Positions 45,497 to 47,148 of a stretch of DNA of 64,000 nt are shown one piece after another (the stretch's first letter is position 1; each line of letters opens with the position of its first letter). Made by a program: the position numbers and the translations under genes. This stretch comes from the human T2T-CHM13v2.0 reference genome, Homo sapiens, in the NCBI RefSeq assembly GCF_009914755.1, contig NC_060928.1; one strand, given 5' to 3'. The notes under the pieces were generated by a model that did not search any database, was not told where the DNA came from, and saw only the letters and a program-made list of their open reading frames with translations.

Positions 45497-47148
<1,652 letters not shown>

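What the first reader, a model, noticed from the sequence alone, without database searches (positions are those of the whole stretch)
46761..46790. Junction of the inverted duplication records a multi-step template switch with an 18-bp perfect palindrome
Seen: ATTGCTGCATGCAGCAAT (46765-46782) is a perfect palindrome. TATTGCTGCATG occurs in direct orientation at both 45860-45871 and 46764-46775. The distal end of the copy finishes in TTGT. Removing the insert restores CTCCTCTATTG|TATAAAAAAAAGTGAAAAC, which appears colinear with L2. Inference: synthesis jumped by TATTG microhomology to ~45861, copied a few bases, reversed strand at the self-complementary (G)CATG, copied ~375 nt backwards, then returned via TTG(T) with little or no loss. 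This is a FoSTeS/MMBIR or polymerase-theta style templated insertion fixed in the germline.
Basis: partly seen in the sequence, partly recalled or inferred. Interest (0 to 1): 0.7.

Follow-up and report, generated by a model that had tools for sequence, protein, structure and literature searches.

The report
Old inverted copy with fold-back seam
A 375-base stretch of non-coding human DNA has a backwards copy 900 bases away, and the short palindrome at the seam likely marks where a copying enzyme turned round during one repair event; it is a clear example of an ordinary kind of mutation.

Summary
45497-45871 recurs inverted at 46772-47148 (362 of 375 bases identical); genome searches found only these two copies. 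The 18-bp palindrome at the left seam is not chance (0.1-0.3% in simulated insertions), but it and the 12-mer direct repeat are one fact, and only three bases (CTG) need explaining. With the insert removed, the flanks align colinearly to a profile of 29 paralogous repeats, with a gap of about 5 nt of unknown age. Best reading (0.7): one templated insertion with three switches at 4-5 nt microhomologies. Polymerase theta alone is unlikely for a 371-nt tract. New here: a 7-bp hairpin starts 2 nt past the turn, and a 150-nt identical run hints at later gene conversion; both were noticed after the fact. The class is known (most sequenced 1000 Genomes 'inversions'), and a second case turned up by chance in 237 kb of other loci. 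No outgroup genome was available. Interest low.

The parts
45418..45565 (+). End of the host repeat (L2-like, lying antisense; family name recalled). It runs unbroken across the donor's left edge at 45497, so this arm is the original.
   Evidence: Profile from 8 of 24 paralogs matches model 3-166 to 45418-45565, E 3e-15
45497..45871 (+). Donor arm, 375 bp
   Evidence: Alignment; only one other copy found in the genome
45861..45871 (+). Donor end ATTGCTGCATG, copied in both orientations; its last four bases are the only CATG in the donor arm
45874..45890 (.). Perfect 7-bp stem with 3-nt loop, starting 2 nt past the donor end; candidate stall site (inferred)
   Evidence: -4.4 kcal/mol; 0.6% of window positions have such a stem within 0-5 nt; same stem on the minus strand, but the whole 51-mer has z only -1.6
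45872..46768 (+). Spacer of about 900 bp; its right end is in the ancestral orientation; holds an Alu at about 46372-46648 with a target-site duplication
   Evidence: Profile hits 46311-46767 (Alu removed) on +; Alu flanks
46765..46782 (.). 18-bp perfect palindrome: acceptor ATTG + templated CTG + CATG turn + CAGCAAT start of the inverted copy
46769..46771 (+). CTG, the three bases that belong neither to the acceptor flank nor to the inverted copy; they match donor 45865-45867
46772..47148 (-). Inverted copy of the donor, 377 bp, 96.5% identical
46797..46946 (.). 150-nt run identical to donor 45697-45846; possible later gene-conversion tract (inferred)
   Evidence: permutation P 0.007-0.04, test chosen after seeing the pattern
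47145..47148 (+). TTGT microhomology at the distal junction; TTG also ends the left flank
47149..47323 (+). Right flank with an A8 run (47151-47158); continues the host repeat from 46768
   Evidence: one 78.5-bit hit over model 94-363

Best explanation
This is a 379-base inverted copy of nearby non-coding DNA, and it likely arose in one replication or repair event in which a growing strand switched template three times at 4-5 base matches. Shown by sequence: donor, copy, the three microhomologies (ACAA/TTGT, CATG, ATTG or TATTG) and the colinear flanks. Inferred, in my preferred direction (about 60:40): a bottom-sense 3' end at the acceptor ending in ACAA annealed 1.27 kb away at donor 45497-45500. 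It copied 371 nt rightwards and stopped at 45871, just before a template hairpin. It then re-paired its self-complementary CATG with the opposite strand, added a few bases (CAG, then CAAT), and used the new CAAT end to rejoin the acceptor at ATTG. A processive polymerase (delta type, MMBIR-like) would make the long tract; the last short step resembles synthesis-dependent end joining. The turn was likely between strands rather than a self-primed hairpin, because a unimolecular fold would have a 1-bp stem and a 2-nt loop. The event likely dates to ape or Old World monkey ancestry and is likely neutral.
For: Arms and junction letters. Two copies found. Palindrome at the junction in 0.11-0.26% of null insertions. 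Empty site scores 78.5 bits as one hit against 55.8 + 10.8 in two pieces as observed; 0 of 100 shuffles of the 64 nt after the junction reach it. Donor's left edge is continuous with the host repeat. The palindrome is centred on a CATG already in the donor (1 in 16 by chance if the centre were a ligated hairpin tip). A hairpin lies 2 nt past the turn and an A8 run at the acceptor; PMC7954356 reports poly(dA:dT) enrichment near switch points. Yeast break insertions of two inverted, overlapping pieces from one locus, with 2-11 nt microhomology between them, are described in PMC11724301.
Against: No outgroup allele was seen. The profile leaves a gap of about 5 nt just right of the junction, and 5 of 100 shuffles of the first 22 nt score as well, so the exact empty site is loose. 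ATTG occurs 11 times and ACAA 21 times in 45000-46763, so each microhomology alone is weak. Continuity across the donor's right edge was supported by only one weak paralog hit (E 0.042); profile walking failed. The hairpin is AT-rich and unremarkable against shuffles (13 of 200). A 1.27-kb reach far exceeds the 40-80 bp spacing at leading-lagging switches in PMC10766183, so a simple fork version needs uncoupling or a resected break.
Confidence: 0.7

Rival explanations
1. A donor fragment with a hairpin-sealed end (tip between 45869 and its complement) was opened 5-9 nt off centre, like a P-nucleotide overhang, and was captured at a break by end joining.
For: It gives a zero-spacer palindrome directly, without an awkward turn; microhomologies of 3-5 nt to the break ends suit end joining; PMC11724301 proposes capture of displaced or extrachromosomal inverted pieces.
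Against: The donor's TG beyond the tip, which makes CATG, would be a 1-in-16 coincidence. The donor is intact and 0.9 kb away, so the piece was copied or came from the sister. P additions are usually shorter (recalled).
Confidence: 0.12
2. Two steps: a plain inverted duplication joined ATTG to CATGCAGCAAT, and a later quasi-palindrome correction added CTG to perfect the stem.
For: Quasi-palindrome-to-palindrome conversion is a described process (PMC7954356 passages). The 150-nt identical run suggests the locus has been reworked since.
Against: It needs a junction with no microhomology, a chance 4-nt arm in the right register, and a second mutation; the single event explains ATTG as the used microhomology.
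Confidence: 0.12
3. L1-mediated retroposition of a local minus-strand RNA, with the A8 run as a poly-A remnant and a tiny 5' inversion from twin priming.
For: The copy is followed by an A-run, and its 5' end carries a short inverted piece.
Against: The left flank and the sequence after the A-run share no target-site duplication. The A-run aligns, weakly, to a purine tract of the host repeat. Insertion 0.9 kb from its own source would be fortuitous. [quoted passage not shown]
Confidence: 0.03
4. The palindrome is a chance product of where an ordinary two-switch inverted copy landed.
For: Two other 18-bp palindromes exist in the window, and the junction was examined after the duplication was found.
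Against: 0.11-0.26% in null insertions.
Confidence: 0.02

Closest known systems
Proximal inverted duplications ('Inverted Dup') of 1000 Genomes phase 3, PMC4617611 (passages)
   Same: Under 1 kb copied and inserted inverted within 5 kb of the source; 54% of the sequenced inversion sites; replication error proposed.
   Different: Those are polymorphic and young; this one has arms 3.5% apart. A turn-around palindrome at the seam was not mentioned in the passages I saw.
Double inverted templated insertions at yeast breaks, PMC11724301 (abstract, sections 19 and 22)
   Same: Two overlapping pieces of one locus in opposite orientation, joined by microhomology and inserted with 0-4 nt microhomology to the break ends.
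   Different: There the donors are distant, the overlap is about 50 bp and the gap between microhomologies 2-20 bp, in rad27 or RPA mutants. Here the donor is 0.9 kb away, the overlap 11 nt and the gap zero.
Four-point short-range template switch in great apes, PMC7954356 (abstract and passages)
   Same: Reverse-strand copying with return to the origin; poly(dA:dT) near the switch; creates perfect inverted repeats.
   Different: Two switches in that model; here three, over kilobase distance.
Polymerase theta stem-loop extension, PMC11292364 (passages); SD-MMEJ, PMC5728401 (search listing only)
   Same: A short inverted synthesis creates the end that closes the break.
   Different: Theta needs two terminal pairs and is almost blocked with one; the self-fold here would have one pair and a 2-nt loop. 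The 371-nt tract is far above theta's usual length.
Local n-jumps in cancer genomes, PMC7025897 (passages)
   Same: Single copy-and-paste event with inverted and direct junctions from local templates.
   Different: Somatic and much larger in scale.

Membership tests
Proximal inverted duplication (1000 Genomes class) | Copied stretch under 1 kb, inverted, within 5 kb of its source | tested here: met
   375 bp, 900 bp apart
Proximal inverted duplication (1000 Genomes class) | Source intact and flanks of the insert colinear (not a balanced inversion) | tested here: met
   the donor's right edge is only weakly covered
Proximal inverted duplication (1000 Genomes class) | An allele without the copy exists | not testable with these tools
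   Only one human haplotype is held and no primate relatives
FoSTeS/MMBIR templated insertion | Microhomology at each switch and a local template | tested here: met
   TTGT, CATG, ATTG or TATTG; each is short and common
FoSTeS/MMBIR templated insertion | All junctions formed in one event | not testable with these tools
   Needs primate alleles
Polymerase theta (TMEJ) templated insertion | Short tract, typically up to about 30 nt | tested here: not met
   371-nt main tract against PMC11724301 Discussion; only the last 7-nt step fits
Polymerase theta (TMEJ) templated insertion | Self-primed stem-loop with at least two terminal pairs | tested here: inconclusive
   Present letters give one pair and a 2-nt loop (criterion); a trimmed longer primer cannot be excluded
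L1-mediated retrocopy with twin priming | Target-site duplication of about 7-20 nt (range recalled) | tested here: not met
   Flanks share only TTG
L1-mediated retrocopy with twin priming | Poly-A tail foreign to the site | tested here: inconclusive
   A8 aligns weakly to the host repeat's purine tract
L2 LINE (host sequence) | Match to the curated L2 consensus | not testable with these tools
   No repeat library is held. Searches show a dispersed family (50 and 69 matches, 0 in reversed controls); the name L2 is recalled

The most novel reading that the evidence does not exclude
The seam preserves a complete three-switch path in which a template hairpin 2 nt ahead stopped the polymerase and forced a zero-spacer strand flip at a CATG. 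The 375-bp arms have since exchanged sequence (150-nt tract), so the 0.9-kb spacer may be an uncatalogued, recurrently flipping micro-inversion. If 'stall hairpin plus self-complementary 4-mer' recurs across old inverted duplications, it would be a readable germline signature of a distinct turning step.
Probability: 0.15. Interest if true: 0.5.

Novelty: new member of a known kind. Interest (0 to 1): 0.25.

Why it matters
As a single locus it matters little: no gene or functional element is annotated in the window, and the class is common. Its use is as a well-preserved worked example. It suggests a cheap survey of old inverted duplications: how often the seam carries a turn-around palindrome, whether it sits on a self-complementary 4-mer, and whether a hairpin lies just beyond. 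That would separate template switching from hairpin opening in the germline. Arms of 375 bp at 96.5% could also confuse short-read inversion calls here (inference).

Tried and rejected
Ancestral base at 45860: not resolved. Pairwise alignment to paralogs was noise. Profile walking reached about 600 nt up from the right-flank motif and 200 nt down from the repeat's end, neither covering the donor's right edge. A single-sequence search gave one weak paralog, and iterating it drifted into Alu (discarded). Spacer inverted between the arms: rejected, because the spacer's right end is colinear with the right flank. Copy from elsewhere in the genome: none found (these searches give lower bounds). Unusual folding of the junction 51-mer: no (28 of 200 shuffles fold as well). 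Return through the 6-nt CTATTG match 5-10 nt beyond the copy's end followed by a 10-nt deletion: possible, but needs an extra event. A larger background survey was not obtained, so the base rate rests on 83 short loci. Locus in print: no hit for coordinate prefixes in held supplements of PMC10150506 (3 files), PMC4617611 (1 file; its table archive was not among the files searched) or PMC13629690 (3 files). The hg19 and hg38 prefixes came from a recalled offset and may be off. 'LINC00290' + 'inversion' gave 3 cancer papers, listing only. These negatives are weak, and unseen supplements may list the site.

Full report
Observation. The stretch 45497-45871 recurs inverted at 46772-47148, with 362 of 375 aligned bases identical, 13 substitutions (9 transitions) and two one-base indels. 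It is the longest inverted pair listed for the window. Searches of the whole genome found these two copies only (such counts are lower bounds). The left seam reads TATTG (acceptor) + CTG + CATG + CAGCAAT, the right seam TTGT then ATAAAAAAAAG. The palindrome and the 12-mer direct repeat are one fact, since the copy starts as the reverse complement of the donor end. Only CTG belongs neither to the flank nor to the inverted copy.

Chance. Two other 18-bp palindromes lie in the window outside the (AT)n run, so length alone says little. Position does: a palindrome with arm of 9 or more within 10 nt of either junction arose in 70 of 62,021 placements of this copy and in 0.26% of 200,000 random inverted insertions.

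Which arm is new, and the empty site. No outgroup genome was available, so I used paralogs of the host repeat as a stand-in. Two window motifs matched 50 and 69 places in the genome, with none for the reversed controls; that this family is L2 is recalled, not from a call. A profile from 29 of the 49 paralogs of the right-flank motif, with the window's own locus left out, hits the left flank (46691-46775) and the right flank (47212-47323) on the same strand and in order. With 46769-47147 removed, the flanks give one 78.5-bit hit, and 0 of 100 shuffles of the 64 nt after the junction reach it. A gap of about 5 nt falls in the A-run just after the junction, and 5 of 100 shuffles of the first 22 nt score as well. 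'Little or no loss' is therefore supported to within a few bases only; the gap may be far older than the insertion. A second profile (8 of 24 paralogs kept by a leave-one-out test, after 5 duplicate loci were dropped) runs unbroken across the donor's left edge (45418-45565). So the left arm is the original, and the spacer's right end is not inverted. The donor's right edge was covered by just one weak hit (E 0.042).

Microhomology. The copy has G at 46783 where the donor's T at 45860 predicts A. Either the donor changed later, and the match was ATTG with an 18-bp palindrome, or the copy changed, and it was TATTG with 20 bp. I could not resolve this. Each match is short and common: ATTG 11 times and ACAA 21 times in 45000-46763; CATG occurs once in the donor arm, at its end.

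Mechanism. Three switches are needed in either direction. The bottom-strand reading is: jump at ACAA to 45497, copy 371 nt, turn at CATG, add a few bases, rejoin at ATTG. I prefer it at about 60:40 (inference). In it the short step creates the end that closes the gap, as in the model of PMC11292364 (passages), and all templates could be single-stranded in one uncoupled leftward fork. Against a simple fork, the reach of 1.27 kb is far above the 40-80 bp spacing in PMC10766183 (passages), so a resected break is as plausible. A self-primed hairpin at CATG would have one pair and a 2-nt loop, which that theta paper finds almost inactive with one pair; re-pairing with the opposite strand (4 bp) fits better. 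PMC11724301 (Discussion) puts theta's own insertions at up to about 30 nt, so the long tract points to a processive polymerase.

Two additions, both noticed after the fact. A perfect 7-bp stem with a 3-nt loop starts 2 nt past the donor end (45874-45890, -4.4 kcal/mol); 0.6% of window positions have such a stem within 0-5 nt, and 0.9% of 9,140 sampled 24-mers fold as well. In both readings the polymerase stops just before it. The surrounding 51-mer is not striking against shuffles (13 of 200). Second, the arms share a 150-nt identical run (46797-46946; permutation P 0.007-0.04 depending on how differences are merged), which hints at later gene conversion.

Age. Arm divergence is 3.5% (95% interval 1.9-5.9%), or 5.8% outside the identical run. 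Against recalled figures of about 3% for human-orangutan and 6.5% for human-macaque, the event lies between ape and Old World monkey ancestry. Fixation is likely at that age but was not tested.

Rivals. Off-centre opening of a hairpin-sealed fragment (0.12) gives the zero-spacer palindrome directly but leaves the CATG as a 1-in-16 coincidence. Later quasi-palindrome perfection (0.12) needs a junction with no microhomology plus a second mutation. A retrocopy with twin priming (0.03) lacks a target-site duplication. Chance is 0.02.

Known kinds. PMC4617611 (passages) reports that 54% of sequenced inversion sites were inverted duplications, nearly all under 1 kb and within 5 kb of the source. PMC11724301 (section 19) describes insertions of two overlapping pieces of one locus in opposite orientation. 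PMC7954356 (abstract and passages) finds template switches widespread in apes, near poly(dA:dT). PMC7025897 (passages) names local n-jumps. Preprint 10.1101/2024.12.19.629504 (passages) lists inverted-duplication structures among the common complex variants. A self-comparison of 83 other held loci (about 237 kb, each 2-3 kb) found one more case: L087, 153 bp, 97.4%, 820 bp apart, two copies in the genome, a 23-nt direct repeat around the insert and no seam palindrome. The class is thus common, and the palindromic turn is an extra step that was absent in the one comparison. I found no mention of this locus in three sets of supplements or one literature search, a weak negative.

Verdict. A real, old, local templated inverted insertion with a legible three-switch junction, in sequence with no annotated function. 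It is a new member of a known kind. Interest 0.25.

Noticed in passing
L087:1052-1204 and 2024-2176 (G000:C9:36254001-36254153 and 36254973-36255125): A second local inverted duplication: 153 bp, 97.4%, two copies in the genome; the inserted arm is flanked by a 23-nt direct repeat and has no seam palindrome.
   Followed up: partly
window 46797-46946 and 45697-45846: 150-nt identical run between arms that otherwise differ by about 6%; possible gene conversion.
   Followed up: partly
window 45874-45890: 7-bp perfect hairpin 2 nt beyond the donor end.
   Followed up: partly
window 11854-11885: Two perfect palindromes back to back (18 bp and 14 bp) in AT-rich sequence; may record a short template switch.
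   Followed up: no
window 45484-45489: The donor's reverse strand has CTATTG just beyond the copy's end, matching the acceptor's last six bases, but the present junction does not use it.
   Followed up: no
window about 46200-46310: The host-repeat profile stops matching left of 46311 although paralogs continue; possibly an old internal deletion.
   Followed up: no
window 47340-47627 and 49402-49691: Inverted Alu pair, 91% over 293 bp, 1.8 kb apart.
   Followed up: no
window 45310-45354 and 48551-48601: Short tandem duplications of 22-23 nt.
   Followed up: no
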